The translations under genes were made by a program, and so were the position numbers. This document shows positions 1,709-12,254 of a DNA stretch of 36,385 bases, one piece after another. The stretch's first letter is position 1. Each line of letters begins with the position of its first letter. The stretch lies in IMG/VR virus record IMGVR_UViG_2698536369_000022; one strand, given 5' to 3'. This DNA is from a virus. Its lineage: Duplodnaviria; Heunggongvirae; Uroviricota; Caudoviricetes. The notes beneath the pieces were generated by a model. The model saw only the letters and a list, made by a program, of their open reading frames with translations, was not told the DNA's origin and searched no databases.

Positions 1709-2818
1709 TCACTCTGTTTCCGCTATCCATTCCGGGATTTTTGCCTCAAGCTCAAGCTGCGTGGTAAAGCCGCTGTTATCAATGGTGTGCTCGGCTTTTG
1801 CAATGATCCAGTCCTGATTATCAATCTCGCTTTTAAATCCTGTTACTGTGCCATGCATTTCGGGGTAGAGTTCTGCACGTCCACGCGCCAGCGTGATGGA
1901 GAATGATGCGGCTCCGCGTTGTAGTTGCTGCCACTTTGCCGCCGCTGCGCGTCTTGCTGCCTGCTCGTTCTGATAAGTCTTGCGTAACACAAACACATTG
2001 CCTTCCGCGCCTTCCATATAATCACCTTCACGGCTGCTGCTTTTCTCCTTTTTGGGTTTTGGCGGTTTGCGGCGTTTCACGCTGACTTTTTTCTTTTTCC
2101 CGTAATTAAGATCAAGCCAGTAAGCGCGTACCCCCGTATACGCTTCGCGGTCAGCAATGCGGAACTGATGGCGATCGCCACTGCTGCGCGTGATGGCGAA
2201 CGATGGCAACGGCTGGCCCTGTGCGTTCACGCCACCGCCAGGCATAATGAATAACAGATTACCGCTTTTTACCGTGGTGATTGCGCCCAGCATTTCCGCC
2301 ATGCGCGTAAGAAAGGACATGTCGCTTTCTTCGGTCTGGTCGGCGTGGTCGATTTCGATATCCATCAGCATTTCGCTGATTTGCGGTTTCAGACCATACC
2401 GATGAGCGATGGCGGATACCACACGCTCAACGGTCACATCATGCCAGGACACCTCACGTTTAACGTTAAATTCATCCCGAAAATCTGCGCTTCTGGCTGA
2501 AACAGTCAGCCTGTCCGGCGGTCCTTCGTGAGCGATTTCATCAACAATGTAAGTGCCTTTTTCTGTCAGCGGTTCCCCTTTCCAGCCAATGAGAACCGTC
2601 AGACGCGCGCCCCGTGGCGGTAGCTGCAACTGGCCATCGGCATCATCCAGCGTGATGGTGAGCTGGTCCGCTTCAAATCCCCGGTTGTCGGTCAGTGACA
2701 GGCTCATCAGGCGTTCTGCCACGCCGGACAGCGTTTTACCCTCGGCGAGAATATCAAAATCCGGCATTTTCACGGGGTCTGTGCCCTGACTGAGCAATTG
2801 CATGGTGGTGTCGGTCAT
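1709..2818 (-). CDS. D: Tail protein D (late control gene D family, tail hub)
   Basis: About 370 aa with gpD-family features; track ORF 1709..2950 has an implausible Pro/Arg-rich leader, so the internal Met (MTDTTMQLL..) at 2818 is the likely start. Confidence 0.8.
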   Translation of the reverse strand: MTDTTMQLLSQGTDPVKMPDFDILAEGKTLSGVAERLMSLSLTDNRGFEADQLTITLDDADGQLQLPPRGARLTVLIGWKGEPLTEKGTYIVDEIAHEGPPDRLTVSARSADFRDEFNVKREVSWHDVTVERVVSAIAHRYGLKPQISEMLMDIEIDHADQTEESDMSFLTRMAEMLGAITTVKSGNLLFIMPGGGVNAQGQPLPSFAITRSSGDRHQFRIADREAYTGVRAYWLDLNYGKKKKVSVKRRKPPKPKKEKSSSREGDYMEGAEGNVFVLRKTYQNEQAARRAAAAKWQQLQRGAASFSITLARGRAELYPEMHGTVTGFKSEIDNQDWIIAKAEHTIDNSGFTTQLELEAKIPEWIAETE

Positions 2819-2975
2819 CTGCTCCCTCCCTGTGTGGCATGGTCGCATGTGCGTGCGGAGGGGGTTACTGCTTTTTGTTGTCGCCGTGGCGGGAGAACGG
2901 CGCAGGGGTGAGATTACGCGCGTGGTGGGTGATGATTGTTGCCGAATCATTTAACGGATACAAGGGGCTGAAGCT
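2819..2975. promoter_or_regulatory. Divergent intergenic region between D and FI; candidate late promoter(s)
   Basis: 157-bp gap between divergently oriented D and FI starts; AAGGGG RBS before the FI ATG. No Ogr TGT-N12-ACA box could be matched confidently. Confidence 0.3.
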
Positions 2976-4160
2976 ATGAGTGAAACTCGTTTTCATGGTG
3001 CCCGTGTTACGGAAAATACCGACCTGGTAACAGCGATTAACGATGTTGATTCCAGCGTTATCGGTATCGTGGCAACGGCGGATGATGCGGACGCGAAGTT
3101 GTTCCCGCTGAACAAGCCCACACTGCTGACCCGCGTCAATGACGTGCTGGGAAAATGCGGAACAACGGGGACGCTTTATCGTGCGCTTAAGGCCATCGCA
3201 GACCAGGTGAGCACAAAGGTGATCGTCGTTCGCGTGGCTGAACACAAAGAAGAAGACGAAAAGACGCAGGATCAACTGGTTATCGGTGGTTCTGAGGATG
3301 ACGGCAGCTATACGGGGATGTATGCGCTGCTTGTTGCAGAGCAGGATGAAAGCATCGGATACCGTCCGCGTATTCTGGCCGCGCCGGAGCTGGACACGGA
3401 GGCGGTGACAAAATCCCTGTGCGTGATTGCGGGTAAACTGCGCGCATTTGTGTATGCCTCATGTCACGGCTGTAACACGATGGCTGAAGCGATTACCTAC
3501 CGCCAGAAATTCAACGAACGTGAAGTGATGCTCTTGTGGCCGGACTTCATCGCCTACAACCCGAAAAGTGGCGAAAACGAAACGTTCCCCGCGCCTGCCT
3601 ATGCGTGCGGCCTTCGTGCGTACATTGACCATGAGCAGGGCTGGCACAAATCGCTGTCCAACGTTCCGGTTAAAAATGTGCTGGGGATGTCCAGGCATGT
3701 GTTCTGGTCGTTACAGGCCGAAGACAGCGATGCCAACAGCCTCAACAACAAAGAAATCACGACCATTATTCGTCGCAACGGGTTCCGCTTCTGGGGCAAC
3801 CGCACACCGGAAACGAACGCCTACATCTTTGAGGTGTATACCCGAACCGCACAGGTGCTGGCTGATTCAATTGCGGAAGCGCAGTTTGAAACCATCGACA
3901 GTCCACTGACGCCTGCGAACGTGAAGGATGTTATCAGTGCCATCAGGGCAAAACTGGATTCACTGGTTACTGCCGGGAAACTGATTGGCGCGGAGTGCTG
4001 GTATGACGTGGTGGATAACAGCACCACGGATTTACGTCAGGGGCGTGTGCGTATTCGCTACAAATATACGCCCGTTCCGCCACTGGAAGACATGGAGCTT
4101 TACCAGACGTTTACTGATGAATACTTTGAACCCGCATTTGCGGTGCTGGGAGGTGCCTGA
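2976..4160 (+). CDS. FI: Contractile tail sheath protein FI
   Basis: 394 aa; motifs AIADQ, KLRAF.Y, DQEQGWHK.LSNV, RRNGFRFWGNRT, YTRTAQV, YTPVPPLE match P2 FI from memory. Confidence 0.9.
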   Translation: MSETRFHGARVTENTDLVTAINDVDSSVIGIVATADDADAKLFPLNKPTLLTRVNDVLGKCGTTGTLYRALKAIADQVSTKVIVVRVAEHKEEDEKTQDQLVIGGSEDDGSYTGMYALLVAEQDESIGYRPRILAAPELDTEAVTKSLCVIAGKLRAFVYASCHGCNTMAEAITYRQKFNEREVMLLWPDFIAYNPKSGENETFPAPAYACGLRAYIDHEQGWHKSLSNVPVKNVLGMSRHVFWSLQAEDSDANSLNNKEITTIIRRNGFRFWGNRTPETNAYIFEVYTRTAQVLADSIAEAQFETIDSPLTPANVKDVISAIRAKLDSLVTAGKLIGAECWYDVVDNSTTDLRQGRVRIRYKYTPVPPLEDMELYQTFTDEYFEPAFAVLGGA

Positions 4161-4672
4161 TGGCTGTGCCAAAACATCTTCGCTTTTTTACGCTGTTTGT
4201 GGATGGTGAAAACGAAGTGGGTAAGGTGACGTCCGTCACTTTGCCTAAGCTGACGCGCAAAACCGACAGCTACCGGGGTGGTGGCATGATGGGGGCGGTA
4301 AGTATTGATCTCGGTCTGGACGACTCCGCGCTTGATGCGAGCTTTGTCATGGGGGGCGCAGTTCGTGAGCTGTTCCTTAAGTATGGCGGCACGATTGACG
4401 GCACGCTGCTGCGTTTTGCGGGTGAATACTACACCGATGCAGAAAGCGACCTGTATGAAGTCGAAATGCGCGGACGTGTGACGGAAATTGATATGGGGGA
4501 AGCCAAACAGGGCGAAGCCACAGCACACACTTACGCCATCAAAAACACCTACTACAAGCTGAGTGTTAACGATCGCCCGTTGTGGGAGATTGACCTGCTG
4601 AACTTCATTTACCGGAAGGACGGCAAGGACATTGTGCCTGACCGTATCCGTTCCGCGCTCGGGCTTGGCTGA
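4160..4672 (+). CDS. FII: Tail tube protein FII
   Basis: 170 aa directly after the sheath gene (start overlaps FI stop), typical sheath-tube pairing; sequence character consistent with P2 FII. Confidence 0.85.
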   Translation: MAVPKHLRFFTLFVDGENEVGKVTSVTLPKLTRKTDSYRGGGMMGAVSIDLGLDDSALDASFVMGGAVRELFLKYGGTIDGTLLRFAGEYYTDAESDLYEVEMRGRVTEIDMGEAKQGEATAHTYAIKNTYYKLSVNDRPLWEIDLLNFIYRKDGKDIVPDRIRSALGLG

Positions 4673-4727
4673 TAAGTAATATGCAGGCGGCGCAGTGCGT
4701 CGCCTCTGACTGAAAAGGAGAAAACTG

Positions 4728-5102
4728 ATGAAAGACATCGATACTGAAACCCGGAATAACACCGTGGCGGATGATGTGACGGCAGGTGAGGATATGGCTG
4801 TCGAACGTGGCGTAAAACTGACCCGACCAATTGAGCGTGGTGGCGAAAAAATCACGTATGTGGAGATCACCGGGGCTATTGAACAGGCTGGATCCCTGCG
4901 TGGTCTGTCGCTGTCTGATGTGCTGAATCTGAAAGCGGATACCATGTTCACGCTGTTGCCTCGCGTGACCTCGCCACGACTGGATGAAGTGATGATTAAA
5001 AAAATGTCGTCACGCGATTTTATTCAGTTGTGCGCTGTGGCTGTAAATTTTATGAGCGAGCCAGACTCTGGCGCGAAGAGCGTGCAGGAGACGGCAGCGT
5101 AA
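4728..5102 (+). CDS. E: Tail assembly chaperone E
   Basis: Small ORF between tube and tape measure genes with an overlapping -1 frame ORF, the conserved P2 E/E' arrangement. Confidence 0.75.
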   Translation: MKDIDTETRNNTVADDVTAGEDMAVERGVKLTRPIERGGEKITYVEITGAIEQAGSLRGLSLSDVLNLKADTMFTLLPRVTSPRLDEVMIKKMSSRDFIQLCAVAVNFMSEPDSGAKSVQETAA

Positions 5103-5266
5103 TCACCCTGGTGTGCTTTGAGCGCATCGAAGATCTGGTGGCAGATATCGCCGCCATTTTTAACTGGTCGCCCGCCGAAATCTTCATGATGACGCCCGGC
5201 GAAGTGGTTAGCTGGCGTGAGCGGGCGGCACTTCGCAGCGGGAATGCAGATAATGAAGACTCTTGA
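4728..5266 (+). CDS. E+E' fusion made by programmed -1 ribosomal frameshift (join about 4728..5003 with 5003..5266)
   Basis: ORF 5030..5266 is in the -1 frame relative to E and opens right after a TAA at 4997-4999; a run of seven A (4998-5004, codons AAA AAA of E) is the only obvious slippery site before the E stop; E' ends ..IFNWSPAEIFMMTPGEVVSW.. overlapping the start of T. Confidence 0.6.
4997..5004 (+). promoter_or_regulatory. Candidate -1 frameshift slippery site (T AAA AAA A)
   Basis: Poly-A heptamer in frame with E Lys91-Lys92, directly after the -1-frame stop codon. Confidence 0.45.
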
Positions 5267-8060
5267 CATCCGGGTCGCTTTCAGCGCCGTTGACAGGCTG
5301 ACCCGGCCTGCCGAAAACGCCCGCCGCCTGATGGGGCAGTTTGGTGACTCCATCCAGCGAACGCAGGGGGCGATCAAAAATCTCGAGCGTCAGGCGCGAT
5401 CATTTGAGCGCGCCCGCGACGCTGTCAGTAAAGCGGATGCTGGCATCGTGAAAGCACGACGCCAGCTTAACGCCCTTAATCAGTTACAACGCACGGGTAC
5501 AGTGCTCAGCGAAAAACAACAAAAGCTGATGCAGCAGTTAAGCACCCGGCTTGAACGCCTGAATGAATCGCGCACACGGGAAATTCAGAAAATGCGGGAA
5601 CTTGGCGGAGAGCTGAAACGCCACGGCATTTCCCTGACAGGCAGCGATAACACCATCCAGCAGGCCATCAGACGCACCGAACAGTACAACAACCAACTTG
5701 AACGCGAACGGCAGGCGCTTGCGCGTGTAACGCGGGCGCGTGAGCGGTATTCGCGCGCGCAGGAAACCGCGGGAAAACTGAAAACAGGTGGTGCGCTGGC
5801 AATTGGTGCTGCAGCGGCTGGCGGCTATGCTGCCGGGCGTTTTTTGCAGCCTGCGATCGGGTTCGGCAAAGAGATGTCCCGCGTTCAGGCACTGACGCGA
5901 ATCGACAAAAACAGCCCGCAGTTTAAGGCGCTGCGTGAGCAGGCGTTAAAACTTGGTTCTGAAACACAGTTTACTGCGAGTGATGCCGCCAGTGGGCAGA
6001 GCTTTCTGGCAATGGCTGGTTTTACTCCGCAGGCCATTCAGGCCGCATTGCCCGGTGTTCTTAATATGGCGCTGGCAGGTGGCGTCGAACTCGGCGAGAC
6101 GGCGGATATAGGCTCCAATATCCTCACACAGTTCAACCTGACAGCCGATCAAATGGACCGGGTTGGCGATACGCTGACAGCGGCATTCACCCGGACCAAT
6201 ACTGATTTACGCGCGCTGGGCGAAACCATGAAGTATACCGGTCCGGTTGCCGCAAAACTTGGTATCAGTCTTGAAGAAGCGGCAGCCATGGCCGGGATGC
6301 TTGCCAATAATGGTCTTCGTGGAAGCGATGCTGGTACGGCCATGCGCGCAAGTCTGTCCCGCCTTGCATCACCGCCAAAAGCTGCGGCTGATGCGCTGAA
6401 AGAGCTGGGGGTGTCAGTTGCTGACGCCAGAGGCAAAATGCGCCCGATGGAGGATGTGCTGCTTGATCTCTATAAGGCGACACAAAAATACGGACAGGTG
6501 GACCAGGTCTCCTTCTTCAAGGGCATCGCCGGAGAAGAGGCGTTCGTTGGTTTGCAGACGCTTGTTGCGGCGGCTGGTTCAGGAGAGCTGCAAAAACTGA
6601 CCAGAGAATTGCAGGGGGCAAGGGGAGAGGCCGATCGCGTTGCAAAAGTAATGGCCGATAATCTTGATGGGGACCTGAAAAGTCTCGACAGCGCATGGGA
6701 AGGTCTTCGTATTCGCATCAGTGATCTGGTTGACGGTCCGCTGCGTTCTGTCACGCAGTGGCTCACGCGGGTGCTTGAAAAAATCACCTCGCTGGCGCAG
6801 GCCCATCCGGTACTGACGCGCCAGCTACTGATAGCAGGCGGTGCGTTGCTGGCAATGACTGCAACGGTTGGCTCGTTGTCGCTGGCTATTGGTGTGCTTG
6901 CTGGCCCGCTGGCAAAACTGCGTCTTGGCTTTTCCCTCCTGACCGGTTCAATGAATGCTGTCAGACTCCTGCCAGCACTATGGGGAATGGTGACGGGTTC
7001 CGTTTCGTTACTGGGGGGCGCTATCGGGGCGTTGTTCAGTCCGGTCGGTCTTATCGTGGCTGCGCTTGCCGGAGCTGCCGTTCTCATCTGGAAATACTGG
7101 GATCCCATCAGGGCATTTTTTGCCGGGGTGTTCAGCGGGATTATGGAAAGGCTGACCCCGTTGCGCGAAACCTTTGAACGGTTTGGTCCTGTTTTTGACG
7201 CAATCGGAAGCGGGATCAGCCAGGTGTTTAACTGGTTTAAATCGCTGTTGTCACCGATGGAGTCCAGCAAGGAAACGCTGGATAAATGTACCAGTGCTGG
7301 CGAGATATTCGGTAACGTTCTTGGCGGTGCGTTACAACTTGTTCTGACACCTGCAAAAATGCTACTGGATACGCTGGCGTGGATACTTGAAAAACTTGGC
7401 GTCCTTCCGGATGAAGCGGAAAGGGCGCGCAAGAAAATCGAAGACGCACAGCGTGCGGCCATTCTTCAGGACAAGGTTGCTCTGTTTCAGGGAGACATTG
7501 CGAAAATCAATCCGCCGAAGCCTGTGGAAAATGGCAATGGCACCGGAGGTGATAAACCCAAAGACAACAAACCGCTCACAGACAGCAATACCGGGACGCT
7601 ACGCAGACTCAGCAAAATTGCTGATAACACAGGTAAGCTGGTTGATGAGACGAAAAAACGCATTGGCCCCGGCGATATTGTCTTTAAGAACCTGCCCCGC
7701 GCACTTGCTGTTCGTGGGGAGTGGCAGGAGCGGAAGATTGCACAGGTCAGTAAGCCTGCCCCCGCAATTAATATCACACCCGTGGTCCCGGCTCCGCTGC
7801 CTCCGGCGCTGATCCCTGTTGTTGCGGCCAGCTCCCGCCCGGTGGCGGAGGCCATACGATCTCAAGTGGCATCAGTTCCTGTAACTTCCCGTAACCGGGA
7901 GCCTGTTGCCTCCGGATTTGGTGGTGAAATTCATGTTCATCTGCATAACGTTGTTACGCAGAACCCCCGCGAACTGGCGAAACTGGTCGGTGAAATGGTC
8001 AGGGCAGAAATGGAACGGCGCGCCCGTGCCGGGCGTGGCAGTTTTTACGATAAAGATTGA
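5217..8060 (+). CDS. T: Tail tape measure protein T
   Basis: 947 aa, long coiled-coil-rich N-terminal half, Gly/Ala-rich hydrophobic segment, position after E/E'; start may be an internal Met (MKTLDIRVAF..). Confidence 0.85.
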   Translation: MSGRHFAAGMQIMKTLDIRVAFSAVDRLTRPAENARRLMGQFGDSIQRTQGAIKNLERQARSFERARDAVSKADAGIVKARRQLNALNQLQRTGTVLSEKQQKLMQQLSTRLERLNESRTREIQKMRELGGELKRHGISLTGSDNTIQQAIRRTEQYNNQLERERQALARVTRARERYSRAQETAGKLKTGGALAIGAAAAGGYAAGRFLQPAIGFGKEMSRVQALTRIDKNSPQFKALREQALKLGSETQFTASDAASGQSFLAMAGFTPQAIQAALPGVLNMALAGGVELGETADIGSNILTQFNLTADQMDRVGDTLTAAFTRTNTDLRALGETMKYTGPVAAKLGISLEEAAAMAGMLANNGLRGSDAGTAMRASLSRLASPPKAAADALKELGVSVADARGKMRPMEDVLLDLYKATQKYGQVDQVSFFKGIAGEEAFVGLQTLVAAAGSGELQKLTRELQGARGEADRVAKVMADNLDGDLKSLDSAWEGLRIRISDLVDGPLRSVTQWLTRVLEKITSLAQAHPVLTRQLLIAGGALLAMTATVGSLSLAIGVLAGPLAKLRLGFSLLTGSMNAVRLLPALWGMVTGSVSLLGGAIGALFSPVGLIVAALAGAAVLIWKYWDPIRAFFAGVFSGIMERLTPLRETFERFGPVFDAIGSGISQVFNWFKSLLSPMESSKETLDKCTSAGEIFGNVLGGALQLVLTPAKMLLDTLAWILEKLGVLPDEAERARKKIEDAQRAAILQDKVALFQGDIAKINPPKPVENGNGTGGDKPKDNKPLTDSNTGTLRRLSKIADNTGKLVDETKKRIGPGDIVFKNLPRALAVRGEWQERKIAQVSKPAPAINITPVVPAPLPPALIPVVAASSRPVAEAIRSQVASVPVTSRNREPVASGFGGEIHVHLHNVVTQNPRELAKLVGEMVRAEMERRARAGRGSFYDKD

Positions 8061-8066
8061 GGAGTC

Positions 8067-8561
8067 ATGGCCATGATGATGATCTACGGCATGTTTGTTT
8101 TTGAGCTGCGCACGTTGCCGCATCAGCAGTTACAGCAAAACAAAAGCTGGCGGCATGTGAAAAATGAACGCGTTAACCGTTCAGCAAGCTGGCAGTATAT
8201 CGGGGCAGGCGATGATCGCATCGTTCTTTCTGGTGTGCTTTATCCTGAAATTACAGGTGGCGAAGTGTCGCTTTCGTTGCTGACCACGCAGGCATATACA
8301 GGACGCCCCTGGCCTCTGATTGATGGTGTCGGGCAGATTTACGGCATGTATGTCCTGACCGGAACGAATACGACCCGCTCCGAGTTTGATCGCTACGGTA
8401 AGGCGAAAAAGATAGAATTTTCACTGACCCTTGAACGCTGTGATGAGGATTTGCGGGAGCGCCTGCAATCCTCATCGTTCAGTGATATGCTGCCCGGCTT
8501 CAAAGATAAGGTCACATCATCCCTTAACAGCGCGGCCAGCTCCGTTAAAGGGCTGTTTTGA
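8067..8561 (+). CDS. U: Tail protein U
   Basis: MAMMMIYGMFVFELRTLPHQQ...GRPWPLIDGVGQIYGMYV..SEFDRYGKAKKIEFSLTL matches P2 gpU (MMLALGMFVF...GRAWPLLDGTGMIYGMYV..SEFDRLGKPRTIDFTLTL). Confidence 0.85.
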   Translation: MAMMMIYGMFVFELRTLPHQQLQQNKSWRHVKNERVNRSASWQYIGAGDDRIVLSGVLYPEITGGEVSLSLLTTQAYTGRPWPLIDGVGQIYGMYVLTGTNTTRSEFDRYGKAKKIEFSLTLERCDEDLRERLQSSSFSDMLPGFKDKVTSSLNSAASSVKGLF

Positions 8562-8568
8562 TTAACGC

Positions 8569-8598
8569 AAAACCGCTAATGGTCAGATTAGCGGTTTT
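8569..8598. terminator. Hairpin shared by convergent U and invertase genes
   Basis: Perfect 12-bp stem AAAACCGCTAAT / ATTAGCGGTTTT with 6-nt loop, followed by CATTTTCC on the plus strand; overlaps the invertase stop codon. Confidence 0.55.
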
Positions 8599-9193
8599 CA
8601 TTTTCCTGAGTCTTCCTGGTTGTTTCTTCAGCCTGTATATCGCCTACAGGGTGATAACGATAAATCGTCGATATGCCGATGTCGTAAATGATCGCCAGTT
8701 GTTTCCTGTCATGACCGTTTTTAATCAGCCTCGCTATTTGCGCGTGTTGTTCTTTTGTCAACTTCGGGCGACGTCCGCCAATGCGTCCTTGTGCGCGTGC
8801 TGCTGCCAGCCCGGCCAGTGTACGCTCTACAATTAATTCACGTTCCATTTCGGCTAAAGCCCCCATGACGTGAAAAAAGAAACGCCCCATGGGTGTTGAT
8901 GTGTCAATGCTGTCCGTCAGACTACGGAAATTAACACCTTTTTCCCGCAATTCCTCAATAAGCGTGATCAGGTGTTTCATACTTCTGCCCGGTCTGTCCA
9001 GCTTCCAGACAACCAGCGTATCTCCTTCTGATAGCGTTCTGAGCAGTTTTTTCAATCCCGGTCTGGCTGATTTCGTTCCGCTGATTTTATCTTCAAAAAT
9101 TAGTTCACATCCTGCGCACTCCAGCGCGTTACGCTGCAATTCTGTATTCTGGTCATTTGTTGATACGCGGACATAGCCAATAAGCATGATCAT
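8588..9193 (-). CDS. Serine DNA invertase (Hin/Gin/Cin/Pin family)
   Basis: MIMLIGYVRVSTNDQNTELQRNAL...LVVWKLDRPGRS...GRFFFHVMGALAEMERELIVERTLAGLAAARAQGRIGGRRPKLT closely matches Hin (MATIGYIRVSTIDQNIDLQRNAL...GRFFFHVMSALAEMERELIVERT..); catalytic Ser in YVRVST; C-terminal HTH. Confidence 0.9.
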   Translation of the reverse strand: MIMLIGYVRVSTNDQNTELQRNALECAGCELIFEDKISGTKSARPGLKKLLRTLSEGDTLVVWKLDRPGRSMKHLITLIEELREKGVNFRSLTDSIDTSTPMGRFFFHVMGALAEMERELIVERTLAGLAAARAQGRIGGRRPKLTKEQHAQIARLIKNGHDRKQLAIIYDIGISTIYRYHPVGDIQAEETTRKTQENENR

Positions 9194-9214
9194 CCCCCTG
9201 AATAAAAACCGGAG

Positions 9215-9610
9215 ATGATGCCAGTTAGCCGTAATCTCTGCATTTTCTTAAACGTTGGTTTGGGAGAAGCGGCAAAACGAAATGTAGGAACAGGTTCAGG
9301 TCAGATACCGGATATGAGTTCTTTTTCTGGCAGCATTGCCAGCAAGGGATATCAGAAGTTACCGGGAGGATTGATTATCCAATGGGGGGCAGGAGATGCA
9401 GGTACGGGTTATGTAGGCTCGACAGGCAATGAGATGAATTTCCCAATCGCTTTTCCGTCACAATGTTTTCAGGTGGTGACGTCCTACGATAATGGTGGAG
9501 GAAAAATTGTTGCCGGGGCAGCAGGGAATATGACCAGGACAGGATTTCTTCTACGCTGTGATGCTTCTGGTGGCAATTATAATTTTCGCTGGTTTGCAAT
9601 AGGGTGCTGA
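9215..9610 (+). CDS. Promoterless alternative tail-fibre C-terminal cassette (Hv'), expressed only after inversion
   Basis: Shares the GLGE crossover peptide with gene H, then a 113-aa Gly-rich C-terminal domain; opposite orientation to H; the N-terminal 12 codons of the track ORF are probably not translated. Confidence 0.6.
   Translation: MMPVSRNLCIFLNVGLGEAAKRNVGTGSGQIPDMSSFSGSIASKGYQKLPGGLIIQWGAGDAGTGYVGSTGNEMNFPIAFPSQCFQVVTSYDNGGGKIVAGAAGNMTRTGFLLRCDASGGNYNFRWFAIGC
9243..9268. promoter_or_regulatory. hix/gix-like 26-bp inversion site (right)
   Basis: TTTTCTTAAACG-TT-GGTTTGGGAGAA inside codons NVGLGE of the alternative tail-fibre cassette; resembles hixL TTCTTGAAAACC-AA-GGTTTTTGATAA. Confidence 0.65.
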
Positions 9611-9611
9611 T

Positions 9612-10055
9612 ATGAGTAATTATTATTTTTCACGGACGACGTTAGCTTTTTATCCGGTAGATATGCTGGAGCTATATCGCTCATATGACAGCTTACCGGA
9701 TGATATTACGCCAGTATCTGATGAAATATTTTTGACTTATTCAGGAACACCACCTGAAGGGAAAGCGCGCGGTGCAAATGATGATGGACAACCTGAGTGG
9801 GTTGATATTCCACCAATGACTCCTGAAGAAGCAATACTCCTTGCCACAGCTCAAAAACAAAATCTTATTGATAATGCCAACGAATATATGAACAGTAAGC
9901 AATGGCCTGGCAAAGCAGCTATTGGTCGTCTGAAAGGTGACGAACTGGCGCAATATAATTTGTGGCTGGATTATCTGGACGCACTGGAACTGGTCGATAC
10001 TTCCAGTGCGCCAGATTTTGAATGGCCTACGCCTCCGGCAGTTCAGGCCAGATGA
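9612..10055 (+). CDS. Tail fibre assembly chaperone (alternative, Tfa')
   Basis: 147 aa; C-terminus ..LDYLDALELVDTSSAPDFEWPTPP parallels the C-terminus of the minus-strand Tfa (..LDYIDAVEATDTSTAPDVIWPELP); directly follows the alternative fibre cassette. Confidence 0.8.
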   Translation: MSNYYFSRTTLAFYPVDMLELYRSYDSLPDDITPVSDEIFLTYSGTPPEGKARGANDDGQPEWVDIPPMTPEEAILLATAQKQNLIDNANEYMNSKQWPGKAAIGRLKGDELAQYNLWLDYLDALELVDTSSAPDFEWPTPPAVQAR

Positions 10056-10629
10056 CATCAGGCGCGGTGCTGGTATCTGTTGCCTCCACCGCGTCAATGT
10101 AATCCAGCACAGCGTTTAGACGGGTTGTTTCTGCCTGCGTCAGTTTACGTCCGGCCTGCAATTTCAGTTGAATCAGACTGATGGAAGTCATTGCTGCATC
10201 AATCAGTGACTGGCGCTGTGCTTCTGCCGCGTCTACTGCGGCACCGTGTTGTGCCTCAGTATCTGCCACCCATTTTTCACCATCCCATTTATCGTATGGC
10301 GTTAACGGGGCGATAGTGGTTGTTTTTTCGGGGTAATCACCCGGAGTTGTGATTTCTTTGGCGTCTCCCGTTTCGGTGTTATAGACGATTTCACCGCGAT
10401 GGTCTGGCACATATTCCCATGAGTTTAAATCCATCGAACGGCAGATAGCATAACCCGCCTTATGTGTGCCAGGGGCATCTAAACAGGAATATGCAGGGAT
10501 ACCGACGCCAACAGCAAGATATTCATTTGAAGTGGAAATATATTCTCGAGTTTCACCATCATAGTTATAGACGGTAATATTCCCTGCTTTGGTGGCGATA
10601 ATCTCGCTATTTAATATGGCGTTATCCAT
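10027..10629 (-). CDS. G: Tail fibre assembly chaperone G
   Basis: 200 aa immediately downstream of H; conserved Tfa C-terminal motif; 3' ends of the two tfa genes overlap convergently. Confidence 0.85.
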   Translation of the reverse strand: MDNAILNSEIIATKAGNITVYNYDGETREYISTSNEYLAVGVGIPAYSCLDAPGTHKAGYAICRSMDLNSWEYVPDHRGEIVYNTETGDAKEITTPGDYPEKTTTIAPLTPYDKWDGEKWVADTEAQHGAAVDAAEAQRQSLIDAAMTSISLIQLKLQAGRKLTQAETTRLNAVLDYIDAVEATDTSTAPDVIWPELPEA

Positions 10630-12254
10630 TATGCAGCCCTCACAATATAGTTAAATGCAATATTCCTTGGTCGAACCCTAAAACCAGCCCCTGCGCCTGC
10701 TCCAGTTGGTAGCAATTCGATAGAGGGGTATGCTGTTGCAGTGGAATATAAACCTTCACGGGAATCATAATCAGTCGTCATATAGTTAGACGCATTATCA
10801 GAAACAGTTTCTGTCGGTCTGGTAACCAGACGATAAGAGCCAGTGGTTGTTGACCTGACCAGACCAAAACTTTCAACCAGAGTGGCTTTTTGAAAGCTTA
10901 ATAATCCACGACCACTGTCAGCTCCGCGCCCATCATCCCAGCCACGAATAAACTCACCACGTAAATCAGGCAATTTATTTGTCGGATAAGCCTTTGCCAG
11001 TTCCGGGTATTCTTCAGCAGAAAAAGCTGCACCGTTGCATTTCAGCCAGCCTGTCGGCGGAGTGGCTGAAGGCCATGGAACAGGTACACCAACAGGTAAT
11101 GCCGAACCTTCTCCCAAACCAAGGTAATCAAGAACTCCCTGAGTGCTGGTTTTACCAAGAATGGCACGTCCAACACTTGTCAACGCGGTTAACGCGGCAC
11201 GATCTGCCCCTGTAAAATATGGGAGTTTATCTGCTGATGTAGCAAGCTCTGCCAGCGCCGTCAGGGTGGCATCCTTCGGTTGCTTACCCGCAAGCGCGTT
11301 AGTCATGGTGGTCGCAAAATTCGGGTCATTGCCCAGCGCCGCAGCCAGTTCGTTCAGCGTGTTCAGTGCATCAGGTGACGAATCTACAAGTGCGGCAATC
11401 GCGGCCATAACGAAAGCCGTGCTTGCGATCTGGGTACTATTAGTCCCCTGTGGCGCTGTTGGTGTTGTTGGCGTTCCGGTCAGTGCCGGGCTGTTTAATG
11501 GTGCTTTCTTGTTCGTTTCATCCATTACCGCCTTAACAGATTTTGGTGTCGCTGCCAGCGTTTCAGACGTGCTGTTCGTGGCGCTACTGAGCTGAACAAT
11601 CCCTTTTTGTGTAGTGGTGGCGTTCTGGGCGGTATATTTCCCGTTAGCCAGGTCATATGCAGCCTTAACCGCTTTCGGTGTTGCGGCCAGTGTTTCTGAT
11701 TCACTGTTAATTGCACTGCTTAACTGAGTAAAACCTTTTACGGTCAGCGAGGCGTCCGGGTGACGACGTGACTGTTCGTGCTCTGAGATTTTATCATCCA
11801 CATATTTGCGGGTTGCCAGAACCACAGACGGGTCGATTTTCAGCGTGATGGCTTCGGTGTTCGTGACAACCAGAATCATGCGGATAGTCTGGGTGCGTCC
11901 ACTGCCTTCCTGCAACTGCGGTTTGTACGTTTCCGGGCAGTTTGCCACCGCAATGAGTACACCTTCATCATCATAAAGACCAATCTCACGGATCCAGAAT
12001 CCTCCCTCGTTTTCAGGGATGATTTGCTCCGCAATAATCTGGCTCTGATTGTTAGGGTCAACACTCAGAAGATTCAGCGGTGCAATGCGTTTCTGGTTAA
12101 TCAGTTTTGTTTGTGCAGGGTCTGGTGTTGGTAACACACCATTTGCATCACCAACGGCCATTTGCGTCAGATTCAGCTTACTGCCGAGCATCGTCGCGTT
12201 AGCCAGTCGTGCCGCGCCCTGATTAGTCAGAATGGCGTAGTATTTCACTGTCAT
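10629..12254 (-). CDS. H: Tail fibre protein H (constant N-terminal part plus currently expressed variable C-terminus)
   Basis: N-terminal ..TQMAVGDANG..FWIREIGLYDDEGVLIAVAN..YKPQL.EGSGR and the repeats HEQSRRHPDASLTVKGFTQLSSA / TQKGIVQLSSATNSTSETLAATPK match P2 gpH from memory. Confidence 0.9.
   Translation of the reverse strand: MTVKYYAILTNQGAARLANATMLGSKLNLTQMAVGDANGVLPTPDPAQTKLINQKRIAPLNLLSVDPNNQSQIIAEQIIPENEGGFWIREIGLYDDEGVLIAVANCPETYKPQLQEGSGRTQTIRMILVVTNTEAITLKIDPSVVLATRKYVDDKISEHEQSRRHPDASLTVKGFTQLSSAINSESETLAATPKAVKAAYDLANGKYTAQNATTTQKGIVQLSSATNSTSETLAATPKSVKAVMDETNKKAPLNSPALTGTPTTPTAPQGTNSTQIASTAFVMAAIAALVDSSPDALNTLNELAAALGNDPNFATTMTNALAGKQPKDATLTALAELATSADKLPYFTGADRAALTALTSVGRAILGKTSTQGVLDYLGLGEGSALPVGVPVPWPSATPPTGWLKCNGAAFSAEEYPELAKAYPTNKLPDLRGEFIRGWDDGRGADSGRGLLSFQKATLVESFGLVRSTTTGSYRLVTRPTETVSDNASNYMTTDYDSREGLYSTATAYPSIELLPTGAGAGAGFRVRPRNIAFNYIVRAA
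11109..11134. promoter_or_regulatory. hix/gix-like 26-bp inversion site (left), inside gene H
   Basis: Plus strand TTCTCCCAAACC-AA-GGTAATCAAGAA, encoding LGLGE of H on the minus strand; the TTCTCCCAAACC half-site is shared in inverted orientation with the site near 9250. Confidence 0.65.

What the first reader, a model, noticed from the sequence alone, without database searches (positions are those of the whole stretch)
8588..11134. Hin/Gin-type invertase with an invertible tail-fibre cassette bounded by 26-bp hix-like sites
A serine invertase gene sits beside two tail-fibre C-terminal domains, each with its own tfa chaperone, arranged head-to-head. The crossover site lies in the codons for GLGE in both H and the silent cassette: about 11109-11134 is TTCTCCCAAACC-AA-GGTAATCAAGAA and about 9243-9268 is TTTTCTTAAACG-TT-GGTTTGGGAGAA, in inverted orientation and resembling hixL. 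Inversion of about 1.87 kb would swap a 159-aa receptor-binding tip for a 113-aa one and swap the chaperone. P2 itself lacks this switch; it is the Mu/P1/e14 mechanism grafted into a P2-like tail-fibre locus.
Basis: partly seen in the sequence, partly recalled or inferred. Interest (0 to 1): 0.5.

Follow-up and report, generated by a model that had tools for sequence, protein, structure and literature searches.

The report
Pin-type invertible tail-fibre switch, P2-like prophage
This is a working copy of a textbook DNA switch: a small recombinase flips a 1.87-kb piece of an E. coli P2-like prophage so that the tail fibre gets one of two alternative receptor-binding tips. The same switch is already well documented in relatives.

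Summary
Two 26-bp sites lie in inverted orientation at 9243-9268 and 11109-11134. They are the only matches in the 36-kb window to the gix/cix/pix site consensus, against 0 expected by chance. Their 2-bp cores (TT and AA) are compatible for inversion.

A 199-aa serine invertase (8588-9187, minus strand) is 82% identical to e14 Pin. It sits just outside the segment and carries the conserved enhancer stretch in its 5' end.

Flipping 9255-11122 in silico keeps the reading frame. H changes from 541 aa to 495 aa, the tip from 159 aa to 113 aa, and the chaperone from 200 aa to 147 aa.

The decisive evidence comes from public assemblies. The window is from E. coli GCA_001284545.1. Another E. coli assembly (GCA_016022515.1) carries the same prophage, with flanks 99.97% identical and exactly this segment inverted, with breakpoints inside the two sites. 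Two O157:H7 strains show the same thing with identical sites.

Fels-2, Gemsvirus phages and the EPEC P2-like prophages carry it, and inversion in the EPEC prophages has been shown experimentally.

The only unusual feature is an L66P change in the invertase, at a position known in Hin to control Fis dependence.

The parts
8588..9187 (-). Serine DNA invertase gene (199 aa from MLIGY; the ORF has an alternative ATG at 9193). It lies outside the invertible segment and reads away from it. It carries L66P in the LDRLGRS motif.
   Evidence: Pfam Resolvase 3e-50 and HTH_7 1.8e-12; PHROG DNA invertase; 82/72/75% identity to PinE/Gin/Cin, with S9, R7, R65, R68, Q150, R153 and L154 conserved; P66 is absent from the 120 best homologue clusters.
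9098..9169 (-). Stretch homologous to the annotated P1 cin recombinational enhancer (gene nt 19-90). It holds two conserved G-N13-C 15-mers at 9152-9166 and 9103-9117, which are candidate Fis sites. The proximal one is centred about 96 bp from the centre of site L.
   Evidence: 58/72 identical to the P1 enhancer against 64% for the rest of the gene; the 15-mers are conserved in window, pinE, gin and cin. Fis binding is inferred, not tested.
9243..9268 (.). Recombination site L (invertase-proximal), TTTTCTTAAACG-TT-GGTTTGGGAGAA; core dinucleotide at 9255-9256.
   Evidence: 25/26 identical to the e14 Pin-proximal site; the inversion breakpoint in L038 and in the O157 pair falls inside it.
9255..11122 (.). 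Invertible segment, 1868 bp from core to core.
   Evidence: In-silico flip; observed inverted in L038, L041 and L042 relative to the window and in BB24-1 relative to FRIK944.
9257..9610 (+). Spare, promoterless 3' cassette: GLGE plus a 113-aa alternative tip with a Gp53-like C-terminal domain, then the stop codon.
   Evidence: Pfam PF21882 2.9e-20; in frame after inversion; expressed form found as a 495-aa H' in L038.
9612..10055 (+). Tail-fibre assembly chaperone Tfa' (147 aa), paired with the spare tip.
   Evidence: Pfam Caudo_TAP 1.9e-28; follows H' on the same strand in the flipped isolate L038.
10027..10629 (-). Tail-fibre assembly chaperone Tfa (200 aa), paired with the currently expressed tip. 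It overlaps tfa' by 29 bp, tail to tail.
   Evidence: Pfam Caudo_TAP 3.6e-31; PHROG tail fibre assembly 1e-96.
10629..12254 (-). Tail fibre gene H in its present form (541 aa). The constant part is residues 1-382 (12254 down to about 11109). The variable 159-aa Collar-domain tip is encoded inside the invertible segment.
   Evidence: Pfam Phage_tail_fib, Phage_fiber_2 and Collar; shared and variable parts; the tip plus tfa are about 90% identical to HK97/HK106 stf-tfa.
11109..11134 (.). Recombination site R inside H, TTCTCCCAAACC-AA-GGTAATCAAGAA; core at 11121-11122. The inner half encodes GLGE. The outer half (TTCTTGATTACC) is the weaker half-site.
   Evidence: identical in the O157:H7 prophages that are seen in both orientations.

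Best explanation
This is a Pin/Gin/Cin-type site-specific inversion switch in a P2-like (Gemsvirus-type) E. coli prophage.

**Proposed mechanism.**
1. The serine invertase encoded at 8588-9187 binds as dimers to the two inverted 26-bp sites.
2. The Fis-bound enhancer inside the 5' end of its own gene assembles the complex.
3. The enzyme cuts both sites with 2-bp staggers at the TT and AA cores, rotates one pair of subunits by 180 degrees and religates.
4. This inverts 9255-11122.

**Consequence.** The crossover lies inside gene H, just upstream of the shared GLGE codons. The constant 382-aa N-terminal part of the tail fibre is therefore joined to one of two tips, each followed by its own chaperone gene:
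- a 159-aa Collar-domain tip with the 200-aa Tfa (the present state);
- a 113-aa gp53-like tip with the 147-aa Tfa'.

A lysogen population should thus release phage of two receptor specificities.

**Shown here:** the sites, the frame, the gene content, and the existence of both orientations in nearly identical prophages.

**Inferred from the family:** Fis and enhancer dependence, the chemistry, and the change of host range.
For: **Sites.** They are unique in the window, against 0 expected by chance. They match the gix, cix and pix sites recovered by the same scan. The cores are TT and AA, the same dinucleotide once one site is read in reverse complement. Hin work shows that mismatched cores block ligation in the inverted orientation (PMC4817059).

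**Invertase.** It has the Resolvase and HTH_7 domains and is 82% identical to PinE. The residues equivalent to the Hin Fis-contact residues Gln151, Arg154 and Leu155 are conserved (Q150, R153, L154; with PMC3798978).

**Enhancer.** The homologous stretch is 81% identical to the annotated P1 enhancer, against 64% for the rest of the gene. Its proximal Fis-like site lies about 96 bp from site L. In Hin the corresponding distance is about 100 bp (PMC3798978).

**Frame.** The flip keeps the reading frame.

**Both orientations of this element.**
- L036 is the window's source (100% identity).
- L038 has flanks with 2 mismatches in 6682 bp and 1 in 3893 bp, and has 9252-11122 inverted at 99.95% identity. 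It encodes the predicted 495-aa H' and Tfa'.
- L041 and L042 are also flipped.

**Related prophages.**
- O157:H7 strains FRIK944 and BB24-1 have 100% identical flanks, an inverted segment and sites identical to the window's.
- In 25 IMG/VR contigs with the exact R site, the H constant part is joined to a Collar-type tip 15 times, to a gp53-like tip 9 times and to a third type 3 times.
- Inversion in P2-like prophages of EPEC was measured experimentally (PMC4272514). The EPEC E2348/69 invertase is in the same 90% cluster as the window's.
Against: - The invertase has Pro at position 66 (LDRPGRS), where all four reference invertases and the 120 best homologue clusters lack Pro and almost all have Leu. 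This residue lies between the catalytic arginines, so activity of this allele is not proven. Flipping could instead be done in trans by another invertase of the host.
- The outer half of site R (TTCTTGATTACC) departs from the AAACC core of the other half-sites.
- No read-level data, Fis binding or host-range data are available here.
- Orientation differences between isolates show that inversion happened, not how often.
Confidence: 0.9

Rival explanations
1. The switch is intact in cis, but the resident invertase is disabled by L66P. The segment is flipped only in trans by another Hin/Gin/Cin/Pin-family invertase present in the same cell, for example e14 Pin or that of another prophage.
For: - P66 is unique among the 120 best homologue clusters, at a near-invariant Leu between the catalytic arginines R65 and R68.
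- E. coli genomes that have any match to this module hold a median of 2 and up to 13 places matching it, so helper invertases are probably common.
- Cross-complementation among these invertases is established: Fin of Fels-2 acts on the Hin system (Kutsukake 2006, cited in PMC4272514).
Against: - Both orientations occur among the informative contigs that carry exactly this allele, 4 in the window's orientation and 3 flipped, with almost no other sequence change. That is most simply explained by an active resident enzyme.
- The gene is otherwise intact and the allele recurs on 8 contigs in several assemblies and sequencing runs.
- In Hin the equivalent residue is regulatory, and substitutions there activate rather than kill (PMC4513852).
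Confidence: 0.12
2. The arrangement is a frozen relic. It arose when an e14-type cassette was acquired by recombination and no longer inverts. The orientation differences between genomes are old, rare events or assembly artefacts.
For: - The module is mosaic: homology to e14 stops exactly at the crossover.
- The outer half of site R is a weaker half-site.
- Short-read contigs often end in or near the segment, so some assemblies are unreliable here.
Against: - L038 differs from the window by 3 substitutions in 10.6 kb of flank yet has the segment inverted.
- FRIK944 and BB24-1 are complete genomes with 100% identical flanks and opposite orientation.
- The breakpoints coincide with the 26-bp sites in both pairs.
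- The sites, the core match, the enhancer stretch and both cassettes are all intact.
Confidence: 0.04
3. Inversion happens by general (RecA-dependent) homologous recombination between the short inverted repeats or between the similar 3' ends of the two tfa genes, not by the invertase.
For: Inverted repeats exist: 18 nt at the sites, and 24 nt (79% complementary) at 9965-9988 / 10085-10108 inside the tfa genes.
Against: - The observed breakpoints map to 9252-9269 and 11108-11122, not to the tfa repeat.
- 18 bp is too short for efficient RecA recombination (established knowledge).
- The repeats have the half-site, 2-bp core, half-site anatomy of invertase sites, and a cognate invertase with its enhancer lies next to them.
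Confidence: 0.02

Closest known systems
Pin / invertible P segment of the e14 element of E. coli K-12 (Plasterk & van de Putte 1985; pinE, stfE/tfaE, stfP/tfaP)
   Same: - The invertase is 82% identical.
- Window 8747-11125 is 93.5% identical in one piece to an e14-type module (L003).
- Site L matches the e14 site at 25/26 and site R at 22/26.
- The layout is the same: invertase outside the segment, spare tip plus tfa, then tfa plus the expressed tip.
   Different: - The constant part of the fibre gene and the outer half of site R come from a P2-type H gene, not from the e14 tail fibre gene.
- The invertase C-terminus is 15 aa longer and unrelated to PinE's over the last 53 codons.
- The host element is an apparently complete P2-like prophage, not a defective lambdoid remnant.
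P2-like prophages with an invertase: Fels-2 (Fin), Gemsvirus phage 500465-2, the O157:H7 P2-like prophage, and the EPEC E2348/69 P2-like prophages
   Same: - The gene order is the same: D(-), FI..U(+), invertase(-), spare tip, tfa', tfa, H, I, J, W, V.
- The 26-bp sites are identical in the O157:H7 prophage.
- The EPEC invertase is in the same 90% cluster.
- Inversion in the EPEC prophages was shown experimentally (PMC4272514).
- The Fels-2 invertase is 79% identical and lies next to a gpH-like gene.
   Different: - The differences are at allele level: 92-98% nucleotide identity, cassettes about 91-94% identical with divergent stretches, and L66P in the invertase.
- One EPEC prophage has three sites (a small shufflon); the window has only two.
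Gin / G segment of phage Mu and Cin / C segment of phage P1
   Same: - The mechanism class and purpose are the same: alternative S/S' tail-fibre C-termini with U/U' chaperones.
- The sites are 26 bp with conserved AAACC half-site ends.
- The enhancer lies in the 5' end of the invertase gene.
- The invertases are 72% and 75% identical.
   Different: - The phage families differ (Mu-like, P1-like).
- Their segments are larger, 3 kb and 4.2 kb.
- In P1 cin reads towards the segment, and cixL overlaps its 3' end.
- The gix core is GA/TC rather than AA/TT.
Hin / H segment of Salmonella (flagellar phase variation)
   Same: - The enzyme family is the same.
- Sites are 26 bp with a 2-bp core.
- The Fis enhancer lies about 100 bp from the nearest site.
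- The Fis-contact residues are conserved.
   Different: - Hin lies inside its invertible segment.
- It switches a promoter rather than exchanging the 3' end of a coding sequence.
- It has no tail-fibre connection.

Membership tests
Fis/enhancer-dependent DNA invertases (Hin/Gin/Cin/Pin, 'Din' family of small serine recombinases) | N-terminal serine-recombinase catalytic domain with the nucleophilic Ser (S9 here; S10 in Hin) and the catalytic Arg residues, plus a C-terminal HTH DNA-binding domain, in a protein of about 185-200 aa. | tested here: met
   Pfam Resolvase 3e-50 and HTH_7 1.8e-12. S9, R7, R65 and R68 are invariant in the alignment with PinE, Gin and Cin, at 82/72/75% identity. Caveat: L66P between R65 and R68.
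Fis/enhancer-dependent DNA invertases (Hin/Gin/Cin/Pin, 'Din' family of small serine recombinases) | Two 26-bp recombination sites in inverted orientation, each made of two imperfect 12-bp half-sites around a 2-bp core, with cores that match after inversion. | tested here: met
   Sites at 9243-9268 and 11109-11134, with cores TT and AA. There are only two matches in the window against 0 in 100 shuffles. The same scan finds the sites at the annotated cix positions, at the annotated Mu G-segment boundaries and flanking the e14 invertible region. Half-site comparison.
Fis/enhancer-dependent DNA invertases (Hin/Gin/Cin/Pin, 'Din' family of small serine recombinases) | A recombinational enhancer in cis with two Fis-binding sites, located in the 5' part of the invertase gene in Gin, Cin and Pin. 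| tested here: inconclusive
   The sequence homologue of the annotated P1 enhancer is present at 9098-9169: 58/72 identical against 64% for the rest of the gene. It holds two conserved G-N13-C 15-mers, the proximal one about 96 bp from site L. Fis binding and enhancer function cannot be tested with these tools.
Fis/enhancer-dependent DNA invertases (Hin/Gin/Cin/Pin, 'Din' family of small serine recombinases) | Residues that contact Fis or the enhancer and are conserved only in invertases: Hin Gln151, Arg154, Leu155, and basic residues 47, 48 and 51. | tested here: met
   Q150, R153 and L154 are invariant. K46, K47 and R50 are present in the window protein. The residue roles come from PMC3798978.
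Fis/enhancer-dependent DNA invertases (Hin/Gin/Cin/Pin, 'Din' family of small serine recombinases) | The segment between the sites is actually found in both orientations. | tested here: met
   Window/L036 against L038, L041 and L042. FRIK944 against BB24-1. Breakpoints lie inside the sites.
Invertible tail-fibre (host-range) cassettes of the Mu G / P1 C / e14 P type | The crossover lies inside the tail-fibre gene, so that a constant N-terminal part is fused in frame to either of two C-terminal tips, each followed by its own tfa-type chaperone, with the two units arranged tail to tail. | tested here: met
   382 aa are shared, the tips are 159 and 113 aa, and both forms are in frame. There are two Caudo_TAP genes, convergent. 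The flipped form is seen intact in L038.
Invertible tail-fibre (host-range) cassettes of the Mu G / P1 C / e14 P type | The two orientations give phage with different receptor or host specificity. | not testable with these tools
   The two tips are unrelated domains, Collar against Gp53-like_C. The expressed tip is about 90% identical to HK97/HK106 side-tail-fibre tips. Host range needs experiments.
Peduoviridae (P2-like phages), Gemsvirus-type gene order | A P2-type tail and baseplate gene set (V W J I H, FI FII E T U D), with the FI-U block on the opposite strand and the invertase between U and the fibre cassettes. | tested here: met
   Pfam GpU, Tail_P2_I, Baseplate_J and Phage_tail_fib. 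PHROG sheath and gpD-like tail protein. The order is the same as phage 500465-2, genus Gemsvirus. It contrasts with P2.
Shufflon / multiple-inversion systems (p15B Min, the EPEC three-site prophage) | Three or more recombination sites allowing several alternative segments. | tested here: not met
   Only two sites are present in the whole 36-kb window at up to 3 mismatches.

The most novel reading that the evidence does not exclude
The natural L66P allele of the invertase changes the Leu that corresponds to Hin Leu67. That residue lines the 'Phe88 pocket' that locks the inactive dimer, and laboratory substitutions there give strongly hyperactive, Fis-independent Hin (PMC4513852). This prophage lineage may therefore carry a naturally deregulated invertase that flips its tail-fibre segment without, or with less need for, Fis and the enhancer. 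The roughly even split of orientations among near-identical isolates would fit. The opposite reading, a dead enzyme rescued in trans, is also not excluded.
Probability: 0.15. Interest if true: 0.35.

Novelty: already known. Interest (0 to 1): 0.12.

Why it matters
The finding matters mainly for annotation. It shows that this prophage can present two different tail-fibre tips. It also shows that the 'gp53-like domain-containing protein' annotated as a separate gene is really a spare 3' cassette of H, and that assemblies may report either orientation or break here.

For biology it adds one more example of host-range bet-hedging in P2-like prophages, which is already established. The L66P allele would be worth a bench test only for someone working on the regulation of serine invertases.

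Tried and rejected
- **Exact-match scan of the 26-bp R site in genome contigs (GTDB representatives):** 0 hits. The species representatives simply lack this prophage, so this was uninformative.
- **Junction searches in complete E. coli genomes** with the flipped and unflipped junctions. No record covered 80% or more of either 801-nt query, because the cassettes are mosaic. This led me to compare specific pairs of genomes instead, which worked.
- **Review on serine invertases, looked up by a remembered PMC id:** not held. The canonical hixL and hixR sequences are therefore not cited from a tool. I used gix, cix and pix taken from annotated records instead.
- **Sigma-70 promoter scan of 8450-9700:** it found nothing convincing for the invertase gene, 1 weak hit against 1.9 expected. 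No promoter claim is made.
- **tRNA scan of the window:** none found.
- **FI-U block on the opposite strand to P2 as a possible second, larger inversion:** rejected as an event specific to this window. The order is shared by classified Gemsvirus phage 500465-2 and many E. coli prophages.
- **L66P as a sequencing error:** rejected. The exact protein is on 8 contigs in several assemblies and sequencing runs.
- **Contig ends near the segment in short-read assemblies (L039-L043) as a sign of mixed orientation:** not used. They may equally reflect repeats of stf/tfa sequences elsewhere in those genomes.

Full report
**1. What is in the sequence**

The region holds the following, from left to right:
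- the end of a P2-type tail operon on the + strand: tape measure at 5217-8060 and gpU at 8067-8561;
- a hairpin at 8569-8598;
- a 199-aa serine recombinase gene on the minus strand at 8588-9187;
- a 26-bp site at 9243-9268;
- a promoterless open frame on the + strand ending at 9610, carrying a Gp53-like C-terminal tail-fibre domain;
- a 147-aa tail-fibre assembly gene at 9612-10055(+);
- a convergent 200-aa tail-fibre assembly gene at 10027-10629(-);
- the 541-aa P2-type tail fibre gene H at 10629-12254(-), which contains the second 26-bp site at 11109-11134;
- then I, J, W and V on the minus strand.

**2. Is it more than chance?**

Yes.
- The consensus TTNTCNNAAACCNNGGTTTNNGANAA, allowing up to three mismatches, matches only these two places in the whole 36,385-bp window. 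One hundred dinucleotide-preserving shuffles gave no match at all.
- As a positive control, my own scan with the same consensus recovers the sites at the annotated cixL and cixR positions of P1, at the annotated G-segment boundaries of Mu, and a matching pair flanking the invertible region of e14 in K-12.
- The sites are in inverted orientation. Their central dinucleotides are TT and AA, which is the same dinucleotide once one site is read in reverse complement. Hin work shows that a mismatch in the core blocks ligation in the inverted configuration (PMC4817059).
- Site L matches the Pin-proximal site of e14 at 25 of 26 positions. Site R matches the distal e14 site at 22 of 26.
- The inner half-sites are identical (TTCTCCCAAACC, encoding GLGE on the coding strand). 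The outer half of site R (TTCTTGATTACC) belongs to the P2-type H gene and is the most divergent half-site.

**3. The recombinase and its enhancer**

The protein has the Resolvase and HTH_7 domains. It is 82% identical to PinE, 72% to Gin and 75% to Cin. The serine nucleophile, the catalytic arginines and the residues equivalent to Hin Gln151, Arg154 and Leu155 are all conserved. Johnson's laboratory proposes that those three residues interact with Fis and that they are specific to enhancer-dependent invertases (PMC3798978).

The P1 record annotates the Cin enhancer at nucleotides 19-90 of cin. The homologous stretch of the window gene (9098-9169) is 58/72 identical to it, against 64% identity for the rest of the gene. 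It contains two 15-mers of the form G-N13-C that are conserved in the window gene, pinE, gin and (the second one) cin. The proximal one is centred about 96 bp from the centre of site L. In the Hin system the corresponding distance is about 100 bp (PMC3798978).

This is homology evidence for an enhancer. Fis binding was not and cannot be tested here.

**4. Consequence of inversion**

Reverse-complementing 9255-11122 (1868 bp) leaves the H frame open.
- The first 382 residues stay the same.
- The 159-aa Collar-domain tip is replaced by a 113-aa gp53-like tip (541 aa becomes 495 aa).
- The 147-aa chaperone gene then follows H' on the same strand, in place of the 200-aa one.

Neither is met.

**5. 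Both orientations exist, for this very element**

The exact invertase protein of the window is in public collections (WP_053883530.1) and is encoded on eight contigs.
- L036 (E. coli GCA_001284545.1, contig CYBM01000008.1) is 100% identical to the window over 12.4 kb and is evidently its source.
- L038 (GCA_016022515.1) has flanks with 2 mismatches in 6682 bp and 1 in 3893 bp, while 9252-11122 aligns on the opposite strand at 99.95%. It encodes precisely the predicted 495-aa H' followed by Tfa'.
- L041 and L042 are also in the flipped state.
- L037, L039 and L040 are in the window's state.

Independently, the complete genomes of O157:H7 strains FRIK944 and BB24-1 carry the same prophage. Their flanks are 100% identical, their 26-bp sites are identical to the window's, and the 1.9-kb segment is in opposite orientations, with breakpoints inside the sites.

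Among 25 IMG/VR contigs with the exact R site, the constant part of H is joined to a Collar-type tip 15 times, to a gp53-like tip 9 times and to a third type 3 times.

**6. Origin of the module**

Window 8747-11125 is 93.5% identical in a single alignment to the pin/P-segment of an e14-type element, and the similarity stops at the crossover in site R. The expressed tip and its chaperone are also about 90% identical to the side-tail-fibre tip and tfa of HK97 and HK106.

P2 itself has H, G, a terminator and fun(Z) at this place, and no invertase.

**7. Comparison with what is known**

The combination is not new.
- The same gene order, invertase included, is found in phage 500465-2 (Peduoviridae, genus Gemsvirus), in many E. 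coli prophages and in Fels-2.
- 114 phage records encode a close homologue of the invertase.
- 3761 of 5426 complete E. coli genomes have a match to part of the region.
- Goldberg et al. 2014 measured ongoing inversion in two P2-like prophages of EPEC E2348/69: one a simple two-state switch, one with three sites (PMC4272514). The E2348/69 invertase falls in the same 90% cluster as the window's.

I therefore rate the finding as already known.

**8. The one unusual feature**

The window invertase has Pro at position 66 (LDRPGRS). PinE, Gin, Cin and the 120 best homologue clusters have no Pro there, and almost all have Leu.

The equivalent Hin residue, Leu67, is listed among the catalytic-domain residues where strong hyperactivating, Fis-independent mutations were isolated (PMC4513852). 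The substitution could thus be neutral, disabling or deregulating.

Both orientations are found among contigs that carry this exact allele and differ by almost nothing else. The segment has therefore flipped since the allele arose, either through the resident enzyme or through another invertase acting in trans. I rate an active resident enzyme as most likely, trans-complementation of a dead enzyme at about 0.12, and a naturally hyperactive enzyme at about 0.15. The last is a sub-case of the active-enzyme explanation.

**9. Verdict**

The mechanism is a Pin/Gin-type site-specific inversion that exchanges the tail-fibre tip and its chaperone (confidence 0.9). The novelty rating is 'already known' and the interest is low.

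Noticed in passing
window 8991-8993 (codon 66 of the invertase, minus strand): The invertase has L66P in the LDRLGRS motif. No Pro occurs at this position in the 120 best homologue clusters. The residue equals Hin Leu67, a site of strong hyperactivating mutations. The exact allele recurs on 8 public contigs and is associated with both orientations.
   Followed up: partly
window 1709-8561: The FI-FII-E-T-U block (2976-8561) is on the + strand, while gene D (1709-2950) and V-W-J-I-H are on the minus strand. In P2 all of these are co-directional, and FI to D form one operon. D and FI start back to back here, only 25 bp apart by the longest ORFs. The same order is found in Gemsvirus phage 500465-2 and many E. 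coli prophages, so it is a lineage trait. How D is transcribed was not examined.
   Followed up: partly
window 9215-9610: The spare tip cassette forms a 131-aa ORF with a chance ATG upstream of site L. RefSeq annotates the equivalent ORF in related genomes as a separate 'gp53-like domain-containing protein' or 'hypothetical protein'. In the flipped O157 genome BB24-1 the Collar tip is likewise annotated as a stand-alone 'phage tail protein'.
   Followed up: yes
window 9965-9988 / 10085-10108 and 10027-10055: The two chaperone genes converge and overlap by 29 bp. Their 3' ends form a 24-nt, 79% complementary inverted repeat that reflects the conserved Tfa C-termini (LDYLDALE / LDYIDAVE). It is not the inversion breakpoint.
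   Followed up: yes
window 8569-8598: A perfect 12-bp stem with a 6-nt loop, flanked by T-runs on both strands, lies between the convergent gpU and invertase genes. It is probably a bidirectional terminator.
   Followed up: no
L020 (1399, 3404), L031 (44, 1909), L012/L018/L030: Some IMG/VR contigs carry two copies of the exact R-type site, direct in L020 and inverted in L031. A third tip type (GAPAIGVP...) is joined at the same GLGE junction. This suggests multi-cassette or rearranged variants of the switch.
   Followed up: no
L039-L043 (contigs carrying the same invertase allele): Short-read contigs end at window positions 9220, 10210, 10349 and 10555, that is, next to or inside the invertible segment. 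This could reflect mixed orientations in the sequenced cultures or repeats of stf/tfa elsewhere in those genomes.
   Followed up: no
L004 (E. coli O157:H7 BB24-1) 5474-6203: In this flipped O157 genome the constant part of H is annotated as two pseudogene fragments, although the DNA is 100% identical to FRIK944 there. This is probably an annotation consequence of the fused H' form rather than real decay.
   Followed up: no
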